Below are positions 1,013-51,596 of a stretch of 64,000 bases of DNA, piece by piece. The number at the start of each line of letters is the position of its first letter. The first letter of the stretch is position 1. Source of the DNA: Eledone cirrhosa (taxonomy: Eukaryota). The DNA is taken from the NCBI GenBank assembly GCA_964016885.1, contig OZ024743.1, positions 242,606,001 to 242,670,000 on the forward strand. Reading direction: 5' to 3'. A model generated the notes under the pieces. The model was given only the letters and a program-made list of their open reading frames with translations, made no database searches and was not told the origin of the DNA. The translations under genes were made by a program, and so were the position numbers.

Positions 1013-2090
1013 ATGGCGGAACAACAAACAGCGGAGCTAATAAAGTTGTTTAGAGAACAGATGGAACAACAAATGCAACAACAGGAACAACAAATGCAAC
1101 AACACAAGAAAGATATGGACACTCTGATAAAACTGTTTGGTGCTCGAGATTCTGAACAACAGAGTTTATTGGCGTCGCCAGTTGCTTCGACACCAACACC
1201 ATTCATCCCACCATTTGCTGCTTTTGATTCAACAACAGAACTATGGCCTGATTACTGGTCAAGATTATGCACGTTTGTGGCTGCTAACGCTGTACCCGAG
1301 CAACGCATGGCACAAGTGTTCCTGACTAATCAGACGGCTGCTATCTACAAACAACTTGCAAATCTGGCTGCTCAACAAAATCCGCCTAAGAATATCAACA
1401 AGTTGACAATGGACGAAATTGTTGACTTCATGAAAGAACAGTTCGACCCAAAACTTTTCATTGTGAGAGAACGTTTCAAGTTCTGAAGTGACATGCAACG
1501 GAAGCCAGGCGAAACTCTCCAGGAGCTGGCAGCACGTATACGTCAGGATGTAGCTACCTGTGATTTTCCTTCGATCACAAATCCACAAGATGAAGCTCTA
1601 AGACAGAGATTTATATGTTCTGTCAATAATGAAGCTGTGTTGAAGGCTATTTTCAAGATCAAGGATACAGAACTAGATTTCGCCCGTGCTGTCCAAGTTG
1701 CCATCGGGACCGAAGACGCAGCAAAGGTTGCCAAGGAAACTGTTTAGGGTTCCAAAACCAAGCAAGTCTACAAGGTCCAGCAGAACAAGAACAAGGGTCC
1801 TCGAAAGAACTATCAGCAGTCTTATTCCACAGACCAGGAGATGTGCTACCGATGTGGAAAGGCCCACAAAGCGACAGACTGCCCCTTCAAAGAAGCCAAA
1901 TGTCATTTTTGTGACAAAAAGGGACATTTGCAAGCGGTGTGTAGAAAGAAACAACATCAGCAACGTAATCATCGCTCACAGAATTACGTGAAAAGAATCA
2001 CGAAAGCTGAGCTAGTCAAGTCGATCCTTGGTGAAGTTCCCCACGATACTCATAGTTTGAATGTGCCAATAACAATCCAGACTTTTCACA
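1013..2090 (+). pseudogene. gag: gag with two CCHC zinc knuckles, disrupted
   Basis: ATG at 1013; in-frame stops at 1484-1486 and 1745-1747; CYRCGKAHKATDC and CHFCDKKGHLQAVC; frameshift near 2080 into the protease frame. Confidence 0.9.
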
Positions 2091-5000
2091 ATGGAATTGG
2101 ACACAGCTACTACAGGCAATTTTGTTTCCTTGTCAGTTTGGAAACAATTAGGAAAACCGAAGCTGCAAGCTGTCAAACATCGGTTTGAATCTGCCAGCAA
2201 GCACGACCTGCCCGTTCTGGGAACTTTCATGGGCCAAACCAAGGATCCAACGACCGGTAAACGGAATTCAATACCCTACATCGTCACCAAGATCCCTGAT
2301 CTTAATTTGCTGGGACGAAACGCTATCCAGACTCTGGGAATTTCCGTGGACAATGCTCTAGGATTGAAAAGCATAGACAGCCAGGCCAAGAGTGAGGGTG
2401 CAGAAGTGATGCATCCAAAGACCTCAAATGAGCCCTATATTTCCATGCAACGAGATTGTCACAACATGTGTGATGAATTCCCAGATCTCTTCAAGCAAGA
2501 ATTGGGATGTCTTAATGACTTCGAACTGGAAGTGAAGTTCAAGTCGGACGCGACACCGGTCTTTCACAAGGCACGCCCGGTCCCGTTTGCTCTTCGTGAT
2601 GACCTGGCCAAAGGTTACGAAGAAGGCATCGCCAAAGGAATCTGGAAGCCAATACAGTTCAACGAATACGGAACGCCAGTGGTACCGATTCGTAAAGCAC
2701 ATACTTCAGGCAACCTGAAGCCCAAACTACGGATTTGTGGTGACTACTCTGTGGGAATTAATGACCAACTTGCAGATCATCGTCATCCAATGCCACTCCC
2801 AGAGGAACTGATGCAGAAGCTCGGAGGTGGATTCGGATACACAAAGATTGATCTTGCTGATGCCTATAATCAGATCAAGCTGGCTCCAGAAAGTCAATGC
2901 AGGCTTGCACTCAGCACTCACTGTGGGGTGTTCCTGCAGGAACGACTCCCTTTCGGAATCAAGTCAGCACCTGGTTACTTTCAGGAGATCATGGAAAACC
3001 TGATTCAAGATCTACCTGGTGTGGCCGTCTTCCAGGACGACATGCTTGTCAGTGGGAAAGATGCAAACGATCACCTGAACAACCTAAAGTGTCTGCTCAC
3101 ACGTCTGTGCGACAAAGGACTCAGATGTCGCCGTGACAAGTGCCAGTTTGCACTACCCAGTGTGGAATACCTTGGACACACCTTGTCGGCTGAAGGGATC
3201 GCGAAGGGATTCAAGGTCGAAGCAGTTTTAAAGATGCCACCTCCAACGAACGTCTCAAGCTTGAAGTCTTTCCTGGGTTCAGTTCAGTTCTATGGAAAGT
3301 TTATCCCAAACCTGGCCAGCATGGCAGAGCCACTCTATTGCCTTACGAAAAAAACGACTTTTTGGAAGTGGGGAGATGAAGAACAGTCAGCTTTCGATCA
3401 GTTGAAAAATGTGCTTTCATCGGATCGAGTTCTGATACACTTCGATCCAAACAAAACTTTGGGACTGGCTTGCGACGCGTCAAACGTTGGTATTGGAGCA
3501 GTCCTGTTTCATCGCTATCTTGATGGAAGCGAGCGCCCAATATCCAATGTGTCCAAGACTCTTACTTCTGCACAGCGTAACTACGGCCAAATTCAAAAGG
3601 AAGCCCTGGCTATCATATTTGGCTTGCAGAAGTTCTATCAGTATCTGTACGGATATCAGTTTATACTCGTAACTGACCACAAGCCACTGACATCACTGTT
3701 AAGTCCGAGGAAAGGGACGCCACTTCTCGCTGCTAACCGACTAGCACAGTGGGCCATGTGGCTGAACCAGTTTGACTATACCATCGAATATCGGAAAACA
3801 GCGGATCATGGCAATGCAGATGCCCTCAGTCGCTTGCCATTTGGTAATGACATCGACTTTGACAGGAAGGAAAATGGTGAAGACATGGACATGGTGTGCG
3901 CCATCAAAGCTCTCAGTCTTCAAGTCCAACCTATCGATTCTAACGTCCTCCGTCAAGAGTCAGGGAAAGATCCAGTGATATCTACAGTGATACGCTACGT
4001 CCGTGAAGGCTGGCCACCAAAGAATACTGAGATCAATGACGAAGTCAATAAGTTCCGGAAGTTATCGGATTCACTCAGTATCTGCCACGGATACCTTATC
4101 CATGGATCGAGAGTTGTGATTCCACATGCCTTACAGCCAAAGATCCTCAATCTTCTGCATCTCGGACACTTTGGCATGGAGCGCATGAAACAATTGGCAA
4201 GAACTGCTGTTTATTGGCCTGGTATCGATGCTGCTATAGAGAAAACCAGTCGACAATGTGATTCGTGTGGTGAACATCAAAACCAGCCATCCAAGTCTCC
4301 AGTTCACCCATGGATGTTACCTGAAAAGCCGTGGAGCCGCTTACACCTGGACCATGCAATAAATTTCATGGGCAGTAATTGGTTGGTGATCACGGATGCT
4401 TATTCCAAGTATCCATGCATTCATCCTACGTCATCCACGTCCTCCAGAGCCACTTTAGATCTGCTTGAAGAAGACTTTGCGCACTTCGGATTTCCTCACA
4501 CGCTAGTCACCGATAACGCACCAACTTTTATTTCTGAGGAGTTCCAGAGCTGGTGCAAAGAACGTGGGATCACGCACCTGACAGGGGCACCTTACCACCC
4601 AGCTACTAACGGAGCAGCGGAACGTTTGGTGCAGACCTTCAAACAAGCTCTGAGGAAGACTTCTCTTCCACCGAAGCGAGCACTTCAAGAGTTCTTGATG
4701 CAGTACCGGAGAACACCGACATCCAGTGGATTCTCTCCGAGTGAACTTTTGAATCACCGGCAGATACGGACAAGGATTGATTCTCTGCTGCCCTCGCCAG
4801 CACACATCGCTCAAGGCAAGCAGTCTAAGGAAGCATATAAGTCTCAGATGACTCCGGACTCGGCAGGTGTCGCTAAGGTTACCAGGCAGTACAAGGCTGG
4901 AGATCCTGTGTATGCACTGTACCCGGGCCTCGCCGAGACAAAGATGCCCAATGGGTACCAGCAATCATTAAGAAGTCATTGGGTACTCGCTGCTTCAACG

Positions 5001-5269
5001 TTAAGGTCATACCTCATGGCCCGGTGTGGAGACGACACTGGGAACAGCTGCAACCGCGGTACACTACTGAGGAAGACAATGAACCTGGTGATGCAGTAGA
5101 CACTGTTTTTGAATTTGCAACAGATCACCCGATGGAGATCTCGGAAATCGTGCCACTAACTCCAAGACAGACCAGACCCAAGACCTTGTTGCCTATTCCA
5201 GAGTATGGACCAGACAATCGAAGATGGTCCAAGAGAACTCGTAAACCCCCAGAGAGACTTTGCTGTTGA
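2091..5269 (+). pseudogene. pol: pol (protease, RT, RNase H, integrase), frameshifted near the C-terminus
   Basis: LDTA protease motif, LPFG and FQDD RT motifs, CDAS RNase H, HLGH..C..C zinc motif, D-D-E integrase (LDHA, TDNA, AERLV); shift near 4920 into ORF 4979-5269. Confidence 0.93.
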
Positions 5270-11559: not shown

Positions 11560-13450
11560 AAGCAGTATGTTATTTGGCGGCTACGACAATACAAAATGGA
11601 CGGTAAGTTTCGGAATAAATTGAAGGCAAGGAAGATAGGAAGATGTTTGTGTGTTACCTGTTATTTTATTTACCTGTCCTAATATTTCGGGTCTATCAAC
11701 CCTTCGACAAAAGACAATAAGAAACTGGATCCAAGTTCGTTATATTGCTGATACAGGTTCGCCATTTTTATAATTTTTTTTTTCGTAAACTGTGGTCTAT
11801 ATATAGCTGCCGGAAGTGACGTCTCAGTGAACTGACATGTATAATGTTGTGTTTGCGTGTTCTTGTTAAATGATGTGTGTTTTTCTTTATGTTTTTATGT
11901 CAATCTTTCTTTCGATGCAAATGTTTTGTCAATTTGTAATATATTGTATAGTTTAACTATTCTGGATTGAATTATGTGTTTGGGCTTGTATGTGCGTGCC
12001 TGTATTTATCGTATCTTGTATACCTAGTTGTAATTGTCTATTATGCGTGTGTGCGTAATTCTGTAAAAAGTTACGTGTGTGTGCTTTTATGTCATGTATT
12101 GCGCGCGGAACTCTAATCTGTTGTTGCTTTGTAGGTTTAGCCTAGCTATTAGTATTCCTTCTTTGATTCTAAGGATGCTTAAGTTCCTCTGCCTGGCTTC
12201 AATAATAACTGCTATGGCTTTGTTGTTGTTTTTGCATTTGTCTAAGTGTTCCATGAAGGCGGATGCGTGTGCATTGTTCCTTAAGGCAAGTGTGAAGAGG
12301 TCTAACGGTACTACCGATGTAAAATTCCCTTCATTTGTCGCATTGAATGCAGTATATTATGTATGTTCGCTGGCACATACCTGTATCATGAATTGGGTAG
12401 TTTGCCAGTGTGCTTTGGTTGTTGCTCTCCCTGGGTTACCTTTTCGATAGTTGGTCTCGAAGTGAAAGGTCGAAGTGGGCCAATTGCATATCTAGTCTCT
12501 GCAGTTTTTTATATTCACTGATGTGTGGTAGTTTCAGGAAGCAGGTGTTGGAGGAGGTCCTGTTTTCGGCATCTCAGGCCCCTTAGACGACTCACAGTAG
12601 TTGTTGGGTAACCATCGACTTTAAGTGCTTCTAGAAAATGTACCGTGTGGTTGGCATCGTCCTCCGCCTTGCTGCATTTGTTCCAGATACGTGTGAGTTC
12701 ATTCTTCAAGTATCCGGTTTTAGCACCAAGGGGAAGGCAGATTTATAATGTACATACCTGTCTCTGCAGGCGGCTTTCCTGTAGAATTTGGTGTGGATGT
12801 CACCTTCTTCTGTTACCTTCAGCTGGAAGTCAAATACGGACAGGAATATAATGTTGTCATGGGGTTCTACGCTGAACCGTTTATTATCGTTCGCGTTCGC
12901 GAACGTCGTGGATATCTTGTTGGCCTCTTCACAGGAAGCCGTGAGGATAAATATATCGTCTATGTACCTGGTGAAGAAGGTACATGTGTAGCAGGTGTTC
13001 AGCGTGCAACGTTCCAGCTGATTCATATAGGTGATGGCCAGTAGTCCTGATTGGCTGTTTGTAGATTTGGGCACGGAAGGTGAAAAATGAAATGTGTTGT
13101 CCACGATGAAGGTTAGGGGTCGGTGTATGTCGAACGTGGTGCGTCCGAAGCAGTATAGGTTGTAAGAAATGATTCAATCAGTAACTAGTTTGACAGTTAG
13201 GTGGACGGGTACTAATGTATAGAGGGAGAAAATGTCTAAGCTAAATATGTATCTATTAAGTCTACGTTATTCTAAAGGTAGTTGACAGTCTTTATATGAC
13301 CACATGGGAGCTGCTGAAAGGCTCGGAAAATGTGGAAAGTATAGGCTTGAGGATCTGAGAGAGAACCAGGAGATTCTGTAGAGGGACCCTTCTATGCTAG
13401 AGACAATTGGCTCTAGCATAGAAGAGATAATTTTCTCCAAAAATTGACTG
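11560..13450 (-). mobile_element. Penelope-like retroelement, 5'-truncated and decayed (RT + GIY-YIG)
   Basis: RYIDDIF RT motif and FYRK...YVHYKSAFP (12706-13104); IYCIQC...FYIGST endonuclease motif near 12310-12360; hammerhead-like motif downstream. Confidence 0.88.
11676..11715 (-). ncRNA. Degenerate hammerhead motif in PLE 3' region
   Basis: Minus strand gtctt-TTGTCGA-a-ggg-ttgataga-ccc-GAAA-ta-TT-aggac; two core substitutions. Confidence 0.5.
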
Positions 13451-16400
13451 GAATTTTAAACGAAAATTGACTGAAAATTGGCTTAATTTTCAACAAAAAT
13501 TGGTTAAATGATCAAAATTTGGCTGAATTTTCACCCCAAATTGACTAAATATTCAACAAAAATTGACTGAAAATTTGCTTAATTTAAAAAAAATTTGCTT
13601 AATTTTCAACAAAAATTTGCTTAATTTTCAAGAAAAATTAGCTAAACTTTCAACTAAATCTGACTAAATTTTCGGAAGAAATTGGCTAATTTTTCAACAA
13701 ACATTGACAAAAGTTTCAACAATAATTGGCTAATTTTTGACAAAAATAGGCTGAATTGTCACCAAAAATCGGCTTTATTGTCACCAAAAATTGGCTAAAT
13801 TTTCAGCAAAAATTGGTTAAATTTTCAACAAAAATTGGTTAAATTTTGAACAAAAATTGACTAAATTTGCAACAAAAACTGGCTAAATTTTCAGCAAAAT
13901 TTGGCTAAATTTTAAGAAAATTTGGCTGAATTTTTTACAAATATGGACTAAATTTTCAACAAAAATTGGATAAATTTTCAACAAAGATTGGCAGAATTTT
14001 CAACATAAATTGATTAAATTATCAACAAAAATTGACAAAAGTTTCAACAATAATTGGCTAAATTTTTGACAAAAATAGGCTGAATTGTCACCAAAAATTG
14101 GATAAATTTTCAGCAAAATATTGACTAAATTTTCAGCAAAAATTGGCGAAGCTTTCAGCAAGAATTGGTTAAATTTTCAACAAAAATTGGTTAAATTTTG
14201 AACAAAAATTGACTAAATTTTGAACAAAAATTGACTAAATTTTCAGCAAAATTTGGCTAAATTTTCAGCTACAATTGGCTGAATTTTCTACAAAATGGAC
14301 TAAATTTTTAACAAAAATTGGATAAATTTTCAACAAACATTGGCGAAACTTTCAACAGAGATTGACTAAATTGTCAGAAAAAATTGGCGAAACTTTCAGA
14401 AAAAATTGGATAAATTTTAGACAAAAATAGGCTGAATTTTCAAACAAAATTTTCAGCAATAGTTGGCTGAATTTTCAACAAATTTTGACTAAATTTTTAA
14501 CAAAAATTGGTTAAACTTTCGACAAAAATGGGCTAAATTTTCAGCAAAAATTGGATAAATTTTCAACAAAAATTGGCATAATTTTGAATATAAATTGGTT
14601 AAATTTTCAATAAAAATACACTAAATTTTCAACAAAAATTGGATAAATTTTCAACAAAAATACACTAAATTTTCAACAAAATTTGGCTAAATTTGCAGCA
14701 AAATTTGGCTAAATTTTCAGCTACAATTGGCTGAAGTTTCTACAAAATGGACTAAATTTTTAACAAAAATTGGATAAATTTTCAACAAACATTGGCGAGA
14801 TTGACTAAATTGTCAGAAAAAATTGGCGAAACTTTCAGAAAAAATTGGATAAATTTTAGACAAAAATAGGCTGAATTTTCAACAAAATTTGACTAAATTT
14901 TTAACAAAAGTTGGTTAAACTTTCGACAAAAATGGGCTAAATTTTCAGCAAAAATTGGATAAATTTTCAACAAAAATTGGCATAATTTTGAATATAAATT
15001 GGTTAAATTTTCAATAAAAATACACTAAATTTTCAACAAAATTTGGCTAAATTTGCAGCAAAATTTGGCTAAATTTTCAGCTACAATTGGCTGAAGTTTC
15101 TACAAAAATGGACTAAATTTTAACAAAATTTGAATTTAAGTTGGCTTAATTTTCAACGAAAATTAGCTGTATTTTCAACAAGAATTGACTAAAATTACAA
15201 CAAAAATTAGCAGAACTTTCAACATAGATTGACTAAATTATCAAAAACATTGTCTAAATTTTCAACAAAAATTGGCTAAATTTTCAATAAAAATTGGCTG
15301 AATTTTTAGCAAATATTGACTAAATTTTCATCAAAATTTGACTAAATTTAGAACCCAAATTGACTAAATATTCAACAAAAATAGACTAAATTTTCAACAA
15401 AAAATGACTGAATTTTCAACAAAGATTGACAAAATTTTCAACAAAAATTGGCTTAATTTTCGGTAAAAAAAACTGAATTGTCAGCAACAATTGGCGAAAC
15501 ATTTCAGCAAGAATTGGCTAAATTTTCAACAAAAATTGGCTGAATTTTCAAACAAAATTGACAAAATTTTCAACAATAATTGGCTGAATATTCGACAAAA
15601 ATTGACAAAGTTTTTAACAAAAATTGGTTAAATTTTCAACAAAAATTGGCTGAATTTTCAAGAAAAATTTACTGAATTTTCAACAAACATTGACTGAAAA
15701 TTTGATTAATTTTCACCAAAAATTGGCTGAATTTTTAGAAGAAATTGGTTGAATTTGGCTAAATTGGATAAATTTTCAACAAAGATCGGCTGAATTTTCA
15801 ACAGAAATTGACTAAATTTTCAACAAACTTTGGCGAAACTTTCAACAAAAATTGACTAAATTGTCTGAAAAATTTGGCGAAACTTTCAGAAAAAATTGGA
15901 TAAATTTTAGACAAAAATTGGCTGAATTTTCAAACAAAATTTTCAACAATAATTGGCTGAATTTTCAACAAAATTTGACTAAATTTTTAACAAAAATTGG
16001 TTAAATTTTCGACAAAAATGGGCTAAAATTTTAGCAAAAATTGACAGAATTTTGAAAATAAATTGGCTAAATTAAATTTCAACAAAATTTGACAAAATTA
16101 TCAACAAAAATGGTCTATATTTTTAGCAAAGTTTGGATAAATTTTCAAAAAAATTGACAAAATTTTCAACAAAAATTGTTTGAATTTTCAACAAAAATTG
16201 ACTGAAAATTTGCTTAATTTTCAACAAAAATTGGCTAAATTTTTAGCAGAGATTGGTTGAATTTTCAACAACAAAAAAAGTAAATTTCCAACAAAAATTG
16301 GCTAAATTTTCGACAAAAATAGGCTGAATTGTCAGAAAAAATTGGCATAATTTTCAGCAATAATTGATTAAATTTTCAGCAAGAATTGGCGAAAGTTTCA

Positions 16401-17896
16401 GCAGAAATTGGCGAAATTTTAGACAAAAATTGGCTGAATTTTCAAATAAATTTGACAAAATTATCAACAAAAATTGGCTGAATATTCAACAAAATTGGCT
16501 GCTTTTTACAAAACAATTGAGAAAATTTTCAGCAGAAATTGACTAAATTTTCAGCAAAAATTGTCGGAATTTTAAACAAAAATTGACGAATTTTAAATAA
16601 AAATTGGTTAAATTTCCAACAAAAATTGGCTGAATTTTCAACCAAAAAAGGTTTGTTGAATTTTCAGCAAAAATTGGCTAAATTTTCAACAATAATTGGC
16701 TAATTCTTCAGCAAAAATTGGCTGAATTTTCAACAAAAATTGACTGAAAATTTGCTTAATTTTCAACAAAAATTGGCTGAATTTTTAGCTGAAATTGGTT
16801 GAATTTTCAACAAAAATTGACTCAATTTTCAACAAAAATTGACTAAATATTCAAAAAGAATAGACTAAATTTTCAAAAAAGGGCTGAATTTTCAACATAA
16901 ATTGACAAATTTTCAACAAAAATTAACAAAATTTTCAAAAATAAATGGCTAAATTTCGACAAAAATAGGCTGAATTGTCAGAAAAAAATTGGCATAATTT
17001 TCGGCAATAATTGAGTACATTTTCACCAAAAATTGGCGAAAATTTCAGCAAATATTGGCTAAATTTTCAATAATAATTGGCTAATTTTTCAAGAAAAATT
17101 GGCTGAATTTTCAAGAAAAATTGACTGAAAATTTGCTTAAATTGTCAACAAAAATTAGTTGAATTTTTAGCAGAAATTGGTTGAATTTTAAACAAAAATT
17201 GGCTAAACTTTCAACAAAAATTGACTAAATCTTCGGAAGAAATTGGCAAAATTTTCAACAAATATTGCCTAAATTTTCAACAAAAATTGGCTGTATTTTT
17301 AGCAGAAATTTGTTGAACTTTCAACAAAAAATGACTAAATTTTCAATAAAAATTAGCTAAACTTTTAACAGATATTGACTAAATTTTTCCGGAGAAATTG
17401 GCTAAATTTTCAACAAAAATTTGCTAAATTTCAGCAAAAATTTTTTTAGCATAAATTGGTTGAATTTTCAACAAAAATTAACAAAATTTTCGAAAAAAAT
17501 TGGCTAAAATTTTCAACAAATATTGGCCGAATTTTCAACAAAAATTGGCTAAACTTTCAACAAAAATTGAAAAAGACTTTCAGCAAAATTTGGCTCAATT
17601 TTCAGCAAAAATTGGCTTAAAATTTCAGCAAAAATGGCGAATCTTTCAACAAGACTAGGCTAAATTTTCAGCAAAAATTGGCTGAATTTTCTACAACAAT
17701 TGACTAAATTTTTAACAAAAATTGTATGAAAATTGGCTTAATTTTCAACCAAGATTGGCTGGATTATAAACAAAAATTGACTAAATTTTCGGAAAAATTT
17801 GGCAAAACTTTCAGCAAAGTTGGCTAAATTTTCAACAAAAATTAGCTGAATTTTTAAAAAAAATTGACTAAATTTTCAGAAAAAAATAGGCTAAAT
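13438..17896. repeat. ~4.5-kb degenerate 21-bp tandem satellite
   Basis: Consensus about AAAATTGGCTAAATTTTCAAC; longer internal duplications (14240-14680 vs 14690-15120). Confidence 0.95.
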
Positions 17897-18894
17897 GGAG
17901 AATTCAAAAAAAGATGGTATGTTCACAGACATTTTATGAAGAACCGTAGACTAGAGAACACAACAACGTTGGCCAATAAAATTTGGCAGCTTAAAGACAC
18001 AAACCAAGAATACAGGATTAGATGGTCGGAATTATCGGGAACAAAGGCCTACAGAAATGGAATCTCCCACTGTGGACTTTGCAATATGGAGCTGTTCCAT
18101 ATTTTAAAGTATGACAAAATGCTGCTTAACAGCAAAATATAACGATCAATTTTCTGTAGGCACAAAGCAGCTACTAAATTCGCAAATTTCAAACCAACAT
18201 GATTCGATCCAACAATCCCATAATTCAAGCTAAACCACCCGGAGTCTATTATAATAACTACATACCAACTCACTATTAACAGACCAACTAATCACTAAAT
18301 CAACATCATAAATCTCCTAACGTTTCTTTCACTCTCTCTCCCTAAAGCTATTTCACCTCTTCCCTTGTATCCTATCCTGTATCTCTTCCCCTTTCACCTA
18401 ATCTCTAATTTATTAAGTTTATCTTTTATCTTTTATTTATTATTATATTCTTTCTTCCTATTCTAACCATCTGTGATTTAACCAATACATATGTATATAG
18501 TTAATATTTATTTTCATATTGATAGTATTTGTACCCTCATCACATCTTTATACTTACTCACCACTATAACTTTAACCACCACCACCACCACTATTATCAA
18601 CAATCGTATTATGTTCATATTTTTTCACGTATATATTTTTTTACTTGTTTTCTATAATCTTCATTCTAACTTCTTTATTATTATTTTTTATTTTTCTTTC
18701 TTTATTATTGATGTTGTTATTTGAATTCTCCGTGTGTAAATTATTCAGTTATTCCGAGGATTTGATTAGCCATACATTGTATTTAAAGTCGAGTGATTAG
18801 CGGCCTTTGGACATAACTAATCAATGAAACAATTGTTAATACTGTAAATAAAACCCTTTTTGTACTGTTGACCATGTTATTCTTCACTCTTTCA

Positions 18895-18897
<3 letters not shown>
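17897..18897 (+). mobile_element. PLE 3' fragment (GIY-YIG C-terminal half, 3' UTR/pLTR)
   Basis: GEFKKRWYVH...TTLANKIWQLK...IRWS...CGLCNME...LLNSK resembles the PLE endonuclease C-terminus; ends at (TA)n. Confidence 0.8.
18746..18844 (+). ncRNA. Hammerhead motif (CCGAGGA variant) with long loop II
   Basis: cagttatt-CCGAGGA-t-ttgattag...ctaatcaa-t-GAAA-caattg-TT-aatactg. Confidence 0.6.
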
Positions 18898-22837: not shown

Positions 22838-23265
22838 GATAACAAGTTATCGTTATAGGTAATCCAGTTAGAGGTTGTGAGTACACTGCCTCGTGGATAG
22901 TTTTAACATACGGCTTTGTTTGACTCAACAAGGTGTTTCCATAGTTATGCAGCGAGTTCGCGGGAATTCTTATGTAGGTTATACTTGGAGTAATAATAGT
23001 GAAAGAATGAAGAGTAACATGGTTGGCTGTACAACAAAGGGCTTTATTTCAGGTATTAACAATTGTTTCATTGATCAGGTGAGTCTAGAGGCCGCTAATC
23101 GCTCGAATTTGCGTCACTCGATCTCCATTACATTATTCACCTCTGACCAAATCTTCGAGCGATTAGCGGCCTCTAGACTCACCTGATCAATGAAACAATT
23201 GTTAATACTTGAAATAAAGACCCTTGTTGTACAGCCAACCATGTTACTCTTCATTCTTTCACTAT
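22836..23265. mobile_element. PLE-end fold-back between (TA)n tracts
   Basis: Arms 22996-23107 and 23154-23265 are inverted and homologous to 18789-18897; they hold only the GAAA-caattg-TT half of the hammerhead; extra tail 22836-22995. Confidence 0.85.
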
Positions 23266-26342: not shown

Positions 26343-29300
26343 AAAAAGAAAATAAAAATTAAAAAAAAAAGAAATATATATATATACATACATCAAACAC
26401 ATACACACACACACACATACATTAATAATAATAACCATAATAATAATAATAACAACAATAATAATAACGAGAACAACAATAATAATATACATATATATAT
26501 ACACATACACGCACACACATAAGCATATATACACACACACACGATAGCAACTAACAGCGCTGCGATCGAATGTGGCTTTTTAGCCCAGCCAATGATCTAA
26601 AATGTCTTGCACAGAGTCGGCAACCAAAACATTCACTGGGAATAGTCGGCTGTGGTTGTAGTTCGTGTACTTTTCCATGTCGCTTGAGCCCTGCTGCTGA
26701 TTTACATTCTCTACCACATCTTTGGCAAGCATGATGAGTAGCATCTCCAACAGCAGCCTGGTAGTCAACCACTGGTCTTACTTTATGACTGCGAAGATGA
26801 CTTTCGAGTCCAGCTTTGCTTAGGCAGAGTCTCGCACAGACGCTGCATGTCAGCACCATAGGAGGACCCTCGCCGTCTGGAAGTGCAACAGCAATGCCCT
26901 TCCTCACATCCCGCTTTACTTTCTCGTATGCGATTCGAGATGCCTCAAAGGCAACTTTTCCCACATATACAGTCTTTCTCCATTTATTACGATCAGCAGC
27001 AATATTTTCCCATGTATCAGCAGAGATGTTAGCGTCTTTCAGAGAGGCTTTCAAGGAATCCTTATACCTCTTTTTTGGTTTATGTGGCGGTCATTTTCCT
27101 TTAACCAACTCTCCATAAAAGAGTTGTTTTGGTATTCTAGAATCCTTCATCCTGGCAAGGTGACCACTCCAACGGAGTCGTTGCTTAAGCACAAGAGCTT
27201 CTATACTGTCACACATAGAGCTTTCCAAAATCTCGACATCACTGATGTGGTCCCTCCAGTGAACGCCATGGATCCGTCTGAGACACATCTGATGGAAACG
27301 CTCCAATTGCTTAAGGTGGTGTCGATATGTGACCCAGGTCTCGCAGACATAAAGAAGACAAGAGAGCACACATGCCCTGTACACCTTTACCTTTGTCCTC
27401 CTGCATATGTCTCGCCGACCCCAGAGTCGCCTTTCTAGCTTTCCGAAAGCATCACTTGCTTTCCTAATCCTAAGTGAGAATTCACTGTCAAGGTTGCCGT
27501 ATCGATTTACAGTGCTTCCCAGGTAGACAAACTGATCAACCACTCCAAGTCGTTTGCCATACACATAGATGTTTGGTTCAGTGTACTGCTTACCAGGGGC
27601 AGGTTGGTACATGACGACGGTTTTCTTGAGACTGACAGTCAATCCTAGGGCAGAGCAAGCGTCAGAAAATGCATTCAAAATGTACTGCATATCACTCTCT
27701 ATGTGCGCTACAAGATCGCAATCATCTGCATACAAGAGGTCTCTTATGATTGATGTAAATACTTTTGATTCGCAGCAAAGCGCCTGATGTTAAATATGCT
27801 GCCTGAGGTTCGATATCGGATGTAAACACCATGCTCGCAATTCCTGAATGCAATACAGAAAACCATTGCAAAGTATATGGCAAACAGGGTTGGTGCTGGA
27901 ATATCCCCCTGTTTCACTCCATTTTTTACTGAGATAGGCTCCGACATGTTACCTCCGACATTAACCCAAGCCTTCATGTCGTCATGGAAAGACCTAACTA
28001 AAGCAAGGAACTTATCAGGGCAACCAAGTTTCTGGAGAACCTTCCATAATGCATCTCTGTTAACAGTATCGAAAGCTTTTGTCAGATCGACAAAAACCTG
28101 ACACAGATCCAAGCCTTGTTCCATGCACTTCTCCTGGAGCTGTCTAGCTGAGAAGATCATATCAGTAGTGCCGCGTCCAGCACGAAAACCAGATTGACTT
28201 TCAGGAAGAACACAATCTGCAATGTGTTTCAGCAGACGGTCCAGAAGCACCCTACATAAAACTTTCCCTACGACAGAAAGCAATGATATACCTCTGTAGT
28301 TCCCACAATCATTCCTGTTACCCTTTCCCTTGTACAATACCACCATTACTGCATCTCTCCAGTCCTCAGGTACGGATTCATTAGCCCATATCCTGCCAAA
28401 CAAAGAGTGAAGATGTTGCAGGAGTCTCTCACCACCATATTGTAGGAGCTCAGCATGTATGCCATCCATACCTGGAGATCTTCCACTGTTCAGCTTCGAA
28501 TTAGCCACTGCAACCTCCACAAGCATCGGAGGTTCTGCGAGAGCTACTTTCACAGGACTTTCTGGAACGAGATTGAGAAAATCTTCACTGACCACAGACG
28601 GCTGATTCAAAAGATCATCAAAGTGCTCTCGCCACCTTCGTAGAATTCCTTGTGAGTCACGAAGAAGTTCTTTGCCATCCTTGCTGCGAAGTGGTGTCAC
28701 CAGAGAAGAAGACGGTCCATAAACCTCACGCAAGAGACTGTACAACAGCTTTGTGTTATTGGAATCTGACGCAGTTTGTATCTCACCAGCCTACTCACTC
28801 CACCACTGATCCTTCACCTGAGAAAGACTCCGCCTAACACGTGATTTTACATCCCCGAGTTCCTCATGCAACGTATTCCTCTCCTGTGGTTTTGCCGTCA
28901 AGTAGCGTGACAGAGCACGCCTCTTATCAGCCAACAAGTCTTCTATATGTACATCATTCTCATTAAACCAGTCCTGATGTTTTCTCTGCACCAATCCCAG
29001 AACACGCCTGCCTACATCATAAACCTACTTTCTAAGGGTCGGCCAATCCTCACCAAGATCTGAAGCCTGCATCTCTTCTTCCAATGTCCTCTTCACATTT
29101 TTATCCTTAAGACGAGCAGCATTCAATCTTTTGGGCAGGGCAACACCAGGAGCCCGGATTTTACGTTTAGTGATTAGTTTCACTTTTGCGCGTACCAGGC
29201 GGTGGTCCGTCCAGCACTCAGCTCCACGAAGAGCACGAACACACTGCACATCCTGTCTGTCACGCATCCTGACTAGGACGTAGTCCAAAAGATGCCATTC

Positions 29301-30458
29301 CTTAGATGCAGGATGCATCCATGTGGTCTTGAATTTGTTCTTTTGTTGGAACATGGTGTTGGTAACACACAGATCCAGCTCCTCACACATCTGCAGCAGG
29401 AGCATACCATTGTTGTTATACTTTCCCACCCCATGCCTTCCGATTACATTCCATGTGTTAAAATCCCTACCCACTCTAGCATTAAAGTCACCAAGCACGA
29501 TGACTTTGTCTGCCTGAGGGATATTTCTTAAAACACCTTTCAAGGCATGGTAAAAGGACACTTTTTCTTCATCAACAGAATTCATAGTTAGAGCATACAC
29601 ACTCACCAGGGTAGCATATCTTCCTTTGTCCAGCGGAACTCTCATGGACATAAGACGCTCACTAATCCCTACTGGGAATTCTTCTAATTTATTCACAAGT
29701 ACAGTCTTAACAGCAAATCCTACCCCAGCCTCTCTTCTGGTTCCTTCATCTCTTCCTTTCCAGAAGAATGTATATTCTCCACAAAATTCTGTAAGATGAC
29801 CATCTCCAGCTAACCTCGTCTCAGATAAAGCCACGATGTCAAGATCGTAACGTCGAAGCTCCTTTGCAACAAGAGCGGTCCTTCGTTCAGGACGCTCCAA
29901 GGAATCCCTGTCAAGCAGCGTCCGTACGTTCCAGCAGCCAAGACTAAATGCCTTGTTTGGCTCTATTACAATGGCACGATGACGAGCGGGCCCAGGCTGT
30001 GATAACCTGGGGCCCCTGCCCTTATTGTCAATTATCTTTTTTGTTCCAGAACCTAAATTGCCAATTATCTCTTTTATATTGTTCTGGAACATCATTGAAT
30101 TGGAAAAAAAAAAAAAAAAAAAAGTAATAATAATAGTAATAATGATAATAATAGTACACTATTAATAATTATTAATGCACTCGTGCAATGCCTGTGCGTG
30201 ACGAATATTTTTCAAGTGAGGAAAGACTGCACTGAGCCAATCCCACTCTCTGAGCGACAGTAGCTATAACCCGAAAAGAAGAAAAGATCAACATCATCGG
30301 TAACTACTGAGCCGCAGGTTTTATATCGGAGTTAACCCAGTTTCCTGAGATGCCTTCTCCTAGAAGAATGCCCTGACAAGGGCTATGGGGTTCTTCACTC
30401 CCACTGGTTTAACTGCGCGATCGGGCATCCAGCCCGATTATTTCTATGTCCCCGCGCG
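26250..30458 (-). mobile_element. Near-full-length RTE-clade LINE
   Basis: APE + RT frame, 5' UTR with ctaggagaagg motif, 3' terminus at 26250-26298 followed by a (TATG)n tail; boundaries approximate. Confidence 0.9.
26551..30095 (-). pseudogene. RTE ORF: AP endonuclease, RT and three C2H2 zinc fingers; three stops and one frameshift
   Basis: WNVRTL, ALSETR, GDFNARVG, LDYVL, TDHRLV; FVDLTKAFD, GVKQG, YADD; stops at 29025, 28791 and 27091; shift near 27770. Confidence 0.93.
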
Positions 30459-41976: not shown

Positions 41977-42401
41977 AGAGAAAATTGAGGTTGGTAATGG
42001 CACATGGAATATATAAGAGACAGAATACTTTTTTGTGAAAAAACATAATTTTATAAGGTAAGGAAATAATAAAGGGTATAAAAAATGACCGGTTTCGATG
42101 GGTCTGCAAAAGCCATCTTTTCAAATGTTGATTAATATTAAGAAAAATTAATAATACGAAGAGTTAAAATTTGAGACTTGAAAATTCAAGTATAAAATTC
42201 ATTGTGGGATTTCATAGCAGTTTTCATCTAGGTAGCAACAACAGGTTGACTGCTGTGTCCCTTTCTGGTAGTGAATGAGAAGTTATTTGGGGTGTGGGTT
42301 ATTTTATAAAGGTCAGATTTAGCAATAGCCAGCTGCTGGTCAGTGAGGGGGTGGAAGCAATATACACACACATACCTTCATCCACACATACATACACATA
42401 C

Positions 42402-44145: not shown

Positions 44146-44601
44146 GTATGTGTATGTATGTGTGGATGAAGGTATGTGTGTGTATATTGCTTCCACCCCC
44201 TCACTGACCAGCAGCTGGCTATTGCTAAATCTGACCTTTATAAAATAACCCACACCCCAAATAACTTCTCATTCACTACCAGAAAGGGACACAGCAGTCA
44301 ACCTGTTGTTGCTACCTAGATGAAAACTGCTATGAAATCCCACAATGAATTTTATACTTGAATTTTCAAGTCTCAAATTTTAACTCTTCGTATTATTAAT
44401 TTTTCTTAATATTAATCAACATTTGAAAAGATGGCTTTTGCAGACCCATCGAAACCGGTCATTTTTTATACCCTTTATTATTTCCTTACCTTATAAAATT
44501 ATGTTTTTTCACAAAAAAGTATTCTGTCTCTTATATATTCCATGTGCCATTACCAACCTCAATTTTCTCTATAACCTTCGTTTTGTGTAGAAAATTACAC
44601 T

Positions 44602-45646: not shown

Positions 45647-47923
45647 CAGGGGTCACCAAACTTTTTTCACAGTGGGCCGGATAACTGAAAGAATGACGAG
45701 CGCGGGCCGCATAATCATTCTGTTCAATACTTGCAAGCCAGATGGAAAGCTCTGGGAAAAAAGACGAAACACTACGTTTAGCATTCCATGTTAATCATGG
45801 GTGAGTGGCGTGCAATGCACAAAGAACAAAGACAACCAACATATTTATTTACTAACAAGTTATCAAAGAAGGCAACGTTAGCAAAAATATAGTTACATCA
45901 GACCTAGTGTGCACATATCGGAATCTTACAAACTAAGCAACAAAAAAAGGTTAGTGAGATTTGTGAAACTGACGTTTGGCTTTCAAGATATCATCAATGT
46001 TTGGTTTGGAATTGCTGCATCCAATCAAGATAATTGCTTTCAAATGTTCATCAGACAATCTCGTTCGATGTGTTGACTTGACATACTTCATTTTTGAAAA
46101 TGTTTGCTCACAGACATAAGTTGTTCCAAACAATGATGCCAAACCAGCGGCAAATTTCTTCAATTTCGGAAACTCAACATCAGGTAAGAAGCGGTAAAAT
46201 TCAACAACTTTTCCTTCTCTGTGCTTCTCTTTCAACAAGTCATTTGCTTGCAAATCAATGAGCTCCAACTGTAGTTCAACTGGCACATCATCAAGGTTAC
46301 AATCAAACGGATTCTGGAACAGAAGAATGTCACTCTCAATTCTGTCGAGCTCAGAAAATCTCTCCAAAAAATGCTTCTTCAAGTCTCGAATAATCTTTTT
46401 AGGAAAATCGAGGTTGACATCTTCAGCAATTGTAGCGCAAAACTCTTTGAAACAGTGAAAATGAGAGAAGTTTTCTCCTTCCAGTTGTGTTTCAAACAAT
46501 GACACCTTTCTCCGAAATCCTTTGATGATTCTGTAGAGATCACAGACGAGGTTATCCTTTCCCTGAAGGTTCAAGTTCAGTTCATTCATGTGGGATGTGA
46601 TGTCGACCAAAAATGACAACTTTGACAGCCAGGTAGGATCTGACAGCTGTGGATCAGCTCTATCTTTGTCAGTGAGAAAAACATCTATTTCGTTTCGGAG
46701 CTTGTAAAAACGAAACAGGACTTTACCGCAGCTGAGCCACCTCACTGCTGTGTGATAAGGCAAGTCACAGAAATCAGAATCGATTTCTTCAAGAAAAGCC
46801 TGGAACTGACGGTGATTGAGTGCATGTCCCCGAATGAAGTTCACAGCAGAAACGACTGGTTTCAGTACACAAGAAACATCCAAGTCTTCCCCCACAGAGT
46901 GCTTGCTGATGTATGATGCAGTGTATGAACAGAGCGCCCGGAATTTGCAAATCTTCCAACTGAGTCCTGATCTGCCCAACCAGACCCTTCCTCACTCCAG
47001 CCATGTTTTTCTCCATCAACTGTAACACCTCGAAGCTGATTCCACTGAAGGTTATAGTCTTGCAAAGTTTTCTGCACTTCTATGAAAATGTCTTTTCCAG
47101 TTGTTGTTCCATGCATGCAGCAAACGGATGCCAACTCTTCCGTTATCTGAAAGTCAAAATTGACACCACGAATGAACACGAGAAGTTGTGACGTACTCGA
47201 GAGATCAGTAGACTCATCCAGCGCCAGAGAATACCACAAGAAGTTCCTAGCTTTCTCGCGTATCTGTAGCACTATGTTCTCTCCAAGTTCTTCTGTTCTC
47301 CGCACGACTGAACTTGCCGAAAGGCTGATACTTCCAGACAAATCAGCTTTCACAGGACACAAGTCATTTGCTGCTTCCATCATACACTCTTTGATGAAGT
47401 TGCCATCAGTAAACGGTTTTCCTCGCTCTGTCAACGTATGCACTATTTTGTAACTTGTACGAGTGACAGATCCATTTTCAGCAAACTTTCTCGTGAAAAG
47501 ATTTTTTTGAGTTTCTAAACCACGTTTCATGGACTCATATTTCTCAGAGCGTAACTTTCCAGAAAACTTTGAATGTGTTGATAGATGTTTTGTTTCATAG
47601 TGGCGCCGAAGATTGTACTCTTTCAAAACGGCAACACTTTCGCTGCATACCACGCAACTAGCTTTCTGGTCCTTTGTTTTCACAAAGAAGTACTTTACTC
47701 CCCATTCTTCATTGAAAACCCGACACTCGGCGTCCACTTTTCTTTTCTTAGTAGCCATAATAAAGGGTGAAGAAAACGGGATCTGAAAATGAAAAAGACA
47801 TTGAATTAGAAACATCTCGTGTTCCATCCGTTTTATCACGCAAATGCAAGTACCGTCGGCGGGCCTGATGAACTGACGTCGTGGGCCTGATCCGGCCGGC
47901 GGGCCGTAGTTTGGTGACCCCTA
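45647..47923 (-). mobile_element. hAT DNA transposon, Buster/Charlie (SPIN/OC1-like) group
   Basis: TIRs CAGGGGTCACCAAACT / AGTTTGGTGACCCCTA; TSD GTCTAAGT with central TA (45639-45646 and 47924-47931); subterminal GGGCCG motifs. Confidence 0.95.
45951..47758 (-). pseudogene. hAT transposase with two frameshifts
   Basis: MATKKRKVDAECRVF start, BED-type zinc finger (CVVC...RRHYETKH), ALDES, TVDG, HCIIH, RWLS, CEQTFS; shifts near 47010 and 46890. Confidence 0.92.
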
Positions 47924-50021: not shown

Positions 50022-50725
50022 TGAGAGTATTGAAGTTTGCTTGAAGCATTGTGGAATAATAAGGTAAATTTCTTTAAGTCGTTTGGAAGCCTCGACAATG
50101 CAGATGGGTAAATCTCCGGGTAACAAGATCCGGTGGTGGAGAGAGAGATGTAAGTGGGTGTACGTTGAGATGCGTGGCGTGTATAAGACTGTAACGTGTA
50201 GAGGAATGAAGCAAAGAGCGTAAAGAATAAAAATAAAAATAACAACACGAGAGAGTTACCTTGGGAGAGATTTAATTGTCCCTATATATTTCGGATTCAC
50301 ATCCATCAACTGGGGGTATTTTCCGGGGTGGGGGAAAGGTTGTCTGTTGGAAGGGTGCGAAACATGTCCTCCGCTGTTCGTTGTTTTGAATATCTGAGGT
50401 ATTCAGCAGAGCGCGCGTGCACGTGAAATGGGGTCGGTCAGGCAGATGTCAACCTTTCCCCCACCCCGGAAAATACCCCCAGTTGATGGATGTGAATCCG
50501 AAATATATAGGGACAATTAAATCTCTCCCAAGGTAACTCTCTCTCGTGTTGTTATTTTTATTTTTATCCTTTACGCTCTATCCTTCATTCCTCTACACGT
50601 CTTATACACACCACGCATCTCAACGTACACCCACTTACATCTCTCTCTCTCTACCACCGGATCCTGTTACCCGGAGATTTACCCATCTGCATTGTCGAGG
50701 CTTCCAAACGACTTAAAGAAATTTA

Positions 50726-50727
<2 letters not shown>
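50022..50727. mobile_element. Fold-back between (TA)n tracts with hammerhead-like motif
   Basis: Arms ~50063-50346 and ~50445-50727; ccc-CAGTTGA-t-gga-tgtgaa-tcc-GAAA-tata-TA-ggg at 50477-50512. Confidence 0.88.
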
Positions 50728-50792
<65 letters not shown>

Positions 50793-50951
50793 AAAAACGA
50801 ACACAGATATATACATATATGTGTTCAAATCGTAAGGGACCAGATTCGCTAAGGTGAAAACAATACTAACTATAGACAATAGGGTTTGCTAGACTCAATT
50901 TAAGAATAAATCAAGAAAATAAATATAAACTGGAATTGTGGTAACTACCAA

Positions 50952-51030
50952 TCACCCAGACAGCTTTGGTCAGCTGTTTCGCAAAATTAATTGTGAAGAG
51001 GAATACCGATTCTTGCTCATCAGTGAGTGA
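50952..51030 (-). ncRNA. Type I hammerhead ribozyme, left-arm copy
   Basis: Reverse complement of 51162-51240 with a U-G pair in stem I. Confidence 0.85.
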
Positions 51031-51161
51031 AACCTAGCTGCTATTTTTAGTGGTGTGAGTTTGTGAGACACGCTAAGTTCAGATACCATGTGCGTTATTA
51101 TATATATACGCACACTATTCAGTTTTTTAATATACTTAGAGGTGTCCAGGATACTAATTCT

Positions 51162-51240
51162 TCACCCACTGATGAGCAAGAATTGGTATTCCTCTTCACA
51201 ATTAATTTTGCGAAACAGCTGACCAAAGCTGTCTGGGTGA
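51162..51240 (+). ncRNA. Canonical type I hammerhead ribozyme
   Basis: tcaccca-CTGATGA-gcaa...ttgc-GAAA-cagct-gaccaa-agctg-TC-tgggtga; predicted cleavage after GUC at 51233. Confidence 0.92.
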
Positions 51241-51596
51241 TTGGTAGTTACCACAATTCCGGTTTGTATTTAGTTTCTTGATTTATTCTTAAATTGAGTC
51301 TGGCAAACCCTATTGTCCATAGTTAGTATTCTTTTCACCTTAGCGAATCTGGTCCCTTACGATTTGAACACACCCACCCAATAATTTTATTTTTCTCCCC
51401 AAACTACCAAAACACACATCTATTTGGATATGCGCTACAATTTATGTACATGTTTTATTTATCGCATATCGAAGGTTTTCTGACCCATTTTAGAGTGCAA
51501 AGAGCTAAACTAATCACTACAATCAAATTTTCCAAATTTGCGGCCCAACCAATTCAGGAATGCTTCCACCGCCCTTGTATATACGTGCATATATAT

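What the first reader, a model, noticed from the sequence alone, without database searches (positions are those of the whole stretch)
50820..51545. Textbook hammerhead pair on opposite strands of one palindrome
51162-51240 has a 7-bp stem I, a G-C-closed stem II, a 5-bp stem III and a GUC site, so it should be able to fold as a monomer, unlike minimal PLE motifs. Its mirror at 50952-51030 is also intact. A transcript from either strand would carry one ribozyme plus an upstream antisense copy able to sequester it, making cleavage compete with dsRNA formation. This is the best experimental target in the window.
Basis: partly seen in the sequence, partly recalled or inferred. Interest (0 to 1): 0.75.

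Follow-up and report, generated by a model that had tools for sequence, protein, structure and literature searches.

The report
Two-armed insertion of ribozyme retroelement
The two mirror-image hammerhead-ribozyme motifs are real, but they are the two arms of one decaying copy of a non-coding repeat found at hundreds of other places in this animal genome, likely pasted in by a Penelope-type jumping-gene enzyme, so the palindrome is likely an ordinary insertion scar and not a purpose-built RNA switch.

Summary
In detail: type I hammerhead motifs lie at 51162-51240 (+) and 51030-50952 (-), in arms that are 96% complementary over 212 nt. They are two partial copies, joined head to head, of a non-coding ~516-nt monomer (230 and 421 exact matches to two probes). 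Of 157 sampled loci, 98 are two-armed and 12 hold a whole hammerhead in both arms. Opposite-strand pairs were already described in 2014. Family copies end in (TA)n at two sites 85 nt apart, each just before a GCTC...GAGC hairpin. In 51 of 52 pairs with both ends at these sites, the arms use different sites. An intact Hydra-type Penelope ORF family in this genome has the same twin ends, 88 nt apart. At this locus the arms have mutated independently, the left ribozyme lacks its distal stem I, both hairpins are missing, and each strand has one cut site. Read-through RNA is predicted to form dsRNA by ~100 kcal/mol, so there is no real competition. Tandem copies are better test targets. The scan reported this kind of element before on other DNA of this genome. 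Cleavage and expression are untested.

The parts
50728..50790 (.). (TA)n microsatellite, likely target at the left arm's 3' end
   Evidence: 93 of 115 canonical family ends abut TA-rich flanks
50791..51031 (-). Left (inverted) arm: monomer positions ~305 to 516 and on to ~30-36; 3' end points outward into (TA)n, slightly short of end site 1
50952..51030 (-). Left type I hammerhead motif; core 51023-51017; predicted cut 50959/50958; distal stem I lost at the junction
51024..51031 (.). Head-to-head junction of the two 5'-truncated arms, with a few bases of overlap
   Evidence: overlaps of 0-5 nt are typical of the family
51025..51372 (+). Right arm: monomer positions 172-516; TA tail missing, likely deleted later
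51152..51246 (+). Right type I hammerhead with extended stem I (51152-57/51241-46, 51162-68/51234-40), long stem II (51176-51211), stem III (51216-31); predicted cut 51233/51234
51378..51583 (+). Unrelated ~205-nt repeat lacking the 5' start seen in other copies; not part of the element
   Evidence: (41 matches among 40 scored of 2420 candidates)

Best explanation
This is one 5'-truncated, two-armed copy of a non-coding ~516-nt hammerhead repeat (retrozyme type) that was likely inserted by a Penelope-like reverse transcriptase-endonuclease, probably of the Hydra clade, and has likely decayed neutrally since. Shown: family membership, tandem monomer, outward-pointing fixed 3' ends in (TA)n at two sites each just before a GCTC...GAGC hairpin, one site per arm, variable head-to-head junctions, and independent substitutions in the two arms here. 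Inferred: the enzyme cut a (TA)n tract. Two RT sites started on the template RNA, one at each hairpin, primed from opposite sides of the break, copied through the uncut or re-ligated ribozyme site, stopped at variable points and were joined through microhomology. Whether both arms keep a hammerhead depends only on how far each cDNA ran. Inferred for this locus: it lacks both hairpins and a second same-strand cut site, so it cannot be re-copied or release a unit circle. Read-through RNA would form a ~212-bp duplex that blocks cleavage.
For: Family: 140 matches among 40 scored of 4943 candidates; 230 and 421 exact probe matches, 0 for reversed controls. Longest ATG ORF in the monomer 63 aa. Ends: 69 of 80 main arms and 39 of 55 inverted arms, and 76 of 89 arms in a second sample, end at monomer 43-51 or 131-136. 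Pooled 157 loci: 98 head-to-head pairs; 51 use different sites, 1 the same, 46 have at least one other end (P 1e-14 for 51 of 52). Both sites precede predicted bulged hairpins. A Hydra-type 709-aa ORF family (RWR, DKT, CxCX5C, no CX2-5CxxC) ends at two sites 88 nt apart before like hairpins: 17 + 15 of 33 terminating copies. Arms of one insertion are closer (median 4.3%) than typical cross-locus pairs (8.4%; 62 pairs). Here the 8 arm differences split 3 right + 5 left from the subfamily majority, none shared. Literature: inverted 5'-truncated copy, one-sided tail and (TA)n bias (PMC8557442); two internal RT starts make the tail (PMC11167929); dual hammerheads 100-700 bp apart on opposite strands (PMC4209133).
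Against: No cognate autonomous partner was found. The Hydra-type family shares no significant blastn similarity with the monomer and showed no hammerhead core downstream of its ORF. Older relatives lie tail to tail with Neptune-type (CX2-5CxxC) elements at 3 of 30 GIY-YIG loci. The left arm ends ~15-20 nt short of site 1 and the right tail is missing, so this locus does not itself show the two-site rule. The nearest cross-locus copy (median 2.6%, a minimum over many) is closer than the partner arm (4.3%), and only 35 of 62 pairs fall in the lowest 5%; single-template origin is therefore not proven. Samples came from exact-match probes and the first contigs listed.
Confidence: 0.85

Rival explanations
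1. The palindrome is a selected sense/antisense switch in which ribozyme cleavage competes with dsRNA formation.
For: Both cores are intact and each strand has an upstream antisense copy. Co-transcriptional folding could differ from equilibrium.
Against: Predicted gap of ~100 kcal/mol, and the antisense arm is made first. The geometry recurs with scattered junctions at 12 of 157 loci. The arms show independent substitutions, two of them CpG-type. Intact core and stems are common in young copies: 5 of 8 and 20 of 41.
Confidence: 0.04
2. One ordinary copy inserted, and the inverted arm arose later by DNA fold-back repair or local inverted duplication.
For: Arms are complementary and meet at a short microhomology. 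The right end was rearranged at some point.
Against: The left arm holds ~30 nt of monomer absent from the right arm. Inverted arms in the family end at the same RT sites and take the other site in 51 of 52 pairs.
Confidence: 0.05
3. The arms are truncated ends (pLTRs) of an autonomous Penelope-like element, not of a non-autonomous tandem monomer.
For: Same end anatomy as autonomous PLEs. The CGAAACAG/CTGT signature resembles several Hydra-clade motifs in PMC8557442 File S2.
Against: Where arms run beyond one unit they re-enter the same monomer (24 of 80 and 12 of 89 arms longer than 516 nt, up to 1263 nt). In the mapping tables no arm breaks off at a shared point into a longer element (flanks were not searched for ORFs).
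Confidence: 0.06

Closest known systems
Metazoan non-LTR retrozymes (Cervera and de la Pena 2020, PMC7229834: parts 2-3 of 6 and passages read; Li, Clavereau and Pollet 2026, 10.64898/2026.07.22.740005: parts 1-3 of 5 read)
   Same: Non-coding, AT-rich repeat with one type I hammerhead per unit; tandem and solo copies; co-occurs with PLEs.
   Different: 516 nt against 150-450 bp (51-972 in the preprint). Long stem II. Mostly under 1.5 units. Mostly two-armed. Cleavage and circles untested. This locus fails the preprint's 'active' criterion of two consecutive units.
Penelope-like element insertions, Hydra clade (Craig et al. 2021, PMC8557442: passages, section 11, part 2 of the supplement)
   Same: Inverted 5'-truncated copy, tail at one end, (TA)n target, hammerhead near the 3' end. 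Twin ends before GCTC...GAGC hairpins are shared with a Hydra-type ORF family in this genome.
   Different: No ORF. 85-nt tail against 30-40 bp described. Non-palindromic stem III in young subfamilies. No sequence homology to the Hydra family examined.
Poseidon_Ac (PAc) internal RT initiation (Frangieh et al. 2024, PMC11167929: parts 1-2 of 4 read)
   Same: Two internal start sites define the tail; both strands are cut and extended; uncut RNA is the main template; predicted dimer.
   Different: PAc starts in an AC-rich stem-loop inside its ORF. A one-site-per-arm rule and twin hairpins are not in the parts read.
PLE hammerheads (Cervera and de la Pena 2014, PMC4209133: passages)
   Same: Type I core, G10.1-C11.1, dual motifs 100-700 bp apart on opposite strands. 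Older subfamilies here have a short stem III with a 2-nt loop.
   Different: Young subfamilies have a 4-5 bp stem III with a 5-10 nt loop and an extended stem I.

Membership tests
Type I hammerhead ribozyme | Core CUGANGA, GAAA, NUH in type I order with three helices | tested here: met
Type I hammerhead ribozyme | Covariation keeping the helices | tested here: inconclusive
   One stem III pair is G-C 18, A-U 6, G-U 2 of 26 while loop III varies by indels. That is probably one event, and stem II pairs 3-4 break in 6 of 26.
Type I hammerhead ribozyme | Match to an Rfam hammerhead model above the gathering score | tested here: not met
   20.1 bits against 48.5; the long stem II is the likely cause
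Type I hammerhead ribozyme | Loop I-loop II tertiary contact | not testable with these tools
   Bulged stem I present on the right, absent on the left; stem II atypical
Type I hammerhead ribozyme | Self-cleavage at GUC | not testable with these tools
   Genomic proxy inconclusive: 4 of 55 inverted arms start within 5 nt of the cut (P 0.03), but only 1 of 49 within 2 nt in a second sample (P 0.69)
Metazoan non-LTR retrozyme | Non-coding repeat unit with one type I hammerhead, found in tandem | tested here: met
   Family level: (L099 and L125 have two intact cores ~500 nt apart; L105 cut sites 519 nt apart)
Metazoan non-LTR retrozyme | Two consecutive same-strand hammerheads at the locus | tested here: not met
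   One per strand in the window
Metazoan non-LTR retrozyme | Transcribed into linear and circular monomers | not testable with these tools
   No usable RNA data
Penelope-like element-mobilised insertion | Inverted 5'-truncated copy with outward 3' ends | tested here: met
Penelope-like element-mobilised insertion | Two fixed ends (tail at one end) and (TA)n targets | tested here: met
   Family level:
Autonomous Penelope-like element | RT plus GIY-YIG ORF | tested here: not met
Hydra-clade dependence | Shared end signal or homology with a Hydra-type ORF family | tested here: inconclusive
   Twin hairpin-marked ends shared; no blastn homology

The most novel reading that the evidence does not exclude
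A dimeric Hydra-type Penelope enzyme grips one retrozyme RNA, likely a circle, by two hairpins. One subunit starts at each hairpin and primes from opposite sides of a break in (TA)n, which forces the one-site-per-arm rule (51 of 52). Meanwhile the family's ribozyme changed between a short, dimer-type stem III and a monomer-type stem III.
Probability: 0.45. Interest if true: 0.65.

Novelty: new member of a known kind. Interest (0 to 1): 0.33.

Why it matters
The locus itself matters little: it is a decaying insertion. The family is useful. Its copies record how a Penelope-type enzyme chooses two start points and builds inverted insertions, which PMC8557442 names as an open question. It also gives a natural series of stem III variants on one hammerhead scaffold. 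The scan noted the same end rule for other families in this genome.

Tried and rejected
Rfam: no hammerhead above threshold. Sequencing runs: no RNA holder listed. Laying 3 of the 4 listed runs (contigs, kind not on record) showed only that the repeat is present; no listed piece spans the locus. Pile-up of 5' ends at the cut site: a hint in sample 1 was not repeated in sample 2; 48 of 49 arms that reach the site run past it. Pile-up at monomer 403-407: 6 against 1.4 expected, P 0.07 after correction. Cognate partner: none among 30 Penelope-type loci (one 17-nt match treated as chance), 50 GIY-YIG loci or 30 Hydra-type loci. Pfam gave no family for the Hydra piece. Circular fold of the L105 monomer: z -2.1 against 40 shuffles, weak. 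The bacterial promoter scan does not apply to this genome. Earlier-notes look-ups by sequence and by nearby place were empty. Paper searches listed no study of this family or of twin-hairpin start signals; most listed papers were seen only as listings, and unread supplements may bear on this.

Full report
Verdict. The two hammerhead motifs are real, but the palindrome is the usual insertion form of a common non-coding retroelement family. This copy looks like a decaying, dead-end insertion.

Observation. The right motif has every type I element at the stated places, with GUC at 51231-33. It also has a distal stem I (51152-57/51241-46) beyond a bulge. The arms are 212 nt, 96% complementary, 129 nt apart. 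A strict descriptor finds 2 hits in the window and 1 in 100 resampled windows. The motif is not textbook: stem II spans 36 nt, Rfam scores 20.1 against 48.5, and the MFE folds differ from the hammerhead. The predicted hammerhead share is 0.12 for the isolated right motif and 0.0002 for the left. With upstream spacer it falls to about 0.0003 for RNA ending at 51260, but is only 0.8 kcal/mol from the MFE for 51032-51372. These figures ignore tertiary contacts. The left motif's stem I stops at the junction. 51378-51583 is another repeat.

Family. The arms match a family with 4943 first-look candidates (not a copy number) and 230 and 421 exact matches to two probes. Copies are pieces of a ~516-nt tandem monomer without a long ORF. 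The window holds monomer 172-516 on + and 305 to about 30-36 on -. Sample 1 was 80 loci from the first 100 listed of 230 matches; loci already held were skipped, pairs merged and the last five not fetched. Sample 2 was 84 loci from the first 100 of 421, 81 after dropping 3 duplicates. Two-armed loci were 55 of 80 and 47 of 81. Pooled, after dropping 7 duplicates, 98 of 157 had a head-to-head pair and 12 held whole hammerheads in both arms. Opposite-strand pairs 100-700 bp apart are already mentioned in PMC4209133 (passages). The inverted truncated copy with a one-sided tail is standard for Penelope-like elements (PMC8557442, passages).

Ends. 3' ends cluster at monomer 43-51 and 131-136: 69 of 80 main arms, 39 of 55 inverted arms, and 76 of 89 arms in sample 2. 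93 of 115 such ends abut TA-rich DNA. Each site lies a few bases before a predicted bulged GCTC...GAGC hairpin. Of 98 pairs, 51 use both sites, 1 the same site twice, and 46 have another end. Following a lead from earlier notes, I found a young family with an intact 709-aa ORF carrying the Hydra diagnostics of PMC8557442 section 11. It ends at two sites 88 nt apart before like hairpins, in 32 of 33 terminating copies. It shares no significant blastn similarity with the monomer and showed no hammerhead core, so the true partner is not identified. In vitro, the anole element PAc starts at two internal sites, extends both strands and does not need ribozyme cleavage (PMC11167929, parts 1-2).

Mechanism (inferred). 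The enzyme cuts (TA)n. Two cDNAs start at the two hairpin-marked sites from opposite sides of the break, run variable lengths and are joined through 0-5 nt overlaps. 48 of 49 arms that reach the cut site pass it, and 24 of 80 and 12 of 89 arms exceed one unit. This fits a circle or an uncut tandem RNA equally. Partner arms are closer than typical cross-locus pairs (4.3% against 8.4%) but not closer than the nearest other copy (2.6%).

This locus. The 8 arm differences split 3 right and 5 left from the subfamily majority, none shared. The right arm's better stem II comes from a C-to-T change at a CpG where 8 of 9 subfamily copies have C. Neither start hairpin is present, each strand has one cut site, and read-through RNA favours the duplex by 100-104 kcal/mol. 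The right tail and the start of the neighbouring repeat were probably lost in a later deletion (inference).

Ribozyme selection in the family. Across 26 chosen variants, loop III varies from 2 to 10 nt while stem III stays paired, with one G-C/A-U/G-U pair. Stem II pairs 3-4 break in 6 of 26. None of the 34 old-against-young majority differences in 343 positions hits the core. This is suggestive only, as the sequences are related. Of nine predicted Xenopus dimers, one cleaved (preprint), so activity should not be assumed.

Standing. New member of a known kind (metazoan retrozyme mobilised by PLEs; PMC7229834). The scan has reported such families and the twin-hairpin rule on other DNA of this genome; those notes are not independent support. 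Earlier notes call the host a cephalopod; I did not check this.

Noticed in passing
window 50059-50731: A second palindrome (~670 nt, 87% self-match) of another repeat, flanked by (TA)n; probably the same insertion type.
   Followed up: no
window 22996-23265: Third palindrome, related to 18785-18896.
   Followed up: no
window 18960, 48131, 52478, 22510, 34827 (-), 35005, 35500 (-), 60948: Further CUGANGA...GAAA motifs of other repeat families; 34827/35005 is another opposite-strand pair.
   Followed up: no
window 12709-13173 (-): Decayed Penelope-type RT piece; a young relative family with intact ~880-aa RT-GIY-YIG ORFs exists in the genome.
   Followed up: partly
L149, L167, L174: Older relatives of the family sit tail to tail in the (TA)n at the 3' end of Neptune-type elements in 3 of 30 GIY-YIG loci; shared target or a hint at a helper.
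   Followed up: partly
L197-L226: Very young Hydra-type family with intact 709-aa ORFs, a ~900-nt 3' region and no hammerhead core found in L210, though PMC8557442 calls hammerheads universal in Hydra.
   Followed up: partly
monomer 403-407 (about window 51259-51263): Excess of 5' truncation points ~27 nt past the cut site (6 against 1.4); unexplained.
   Followed up: partly
window 41977-42359 and 44188-44570: 383-bp perfect inverted repeat around a microsatellite-rich duplicated block; recent duplication or assembly artefact.
   Followed up: no
window 2073-5099; 27091-30158 (-); 45951-47920 (-); 13570-17896: Gypsy-type pol ORF with 279-bp direct repeats (651-929/5303-5581), a LINE in pieces, a hAT transposase in two frames, and a 22-bp satellite.
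   Followed up: no
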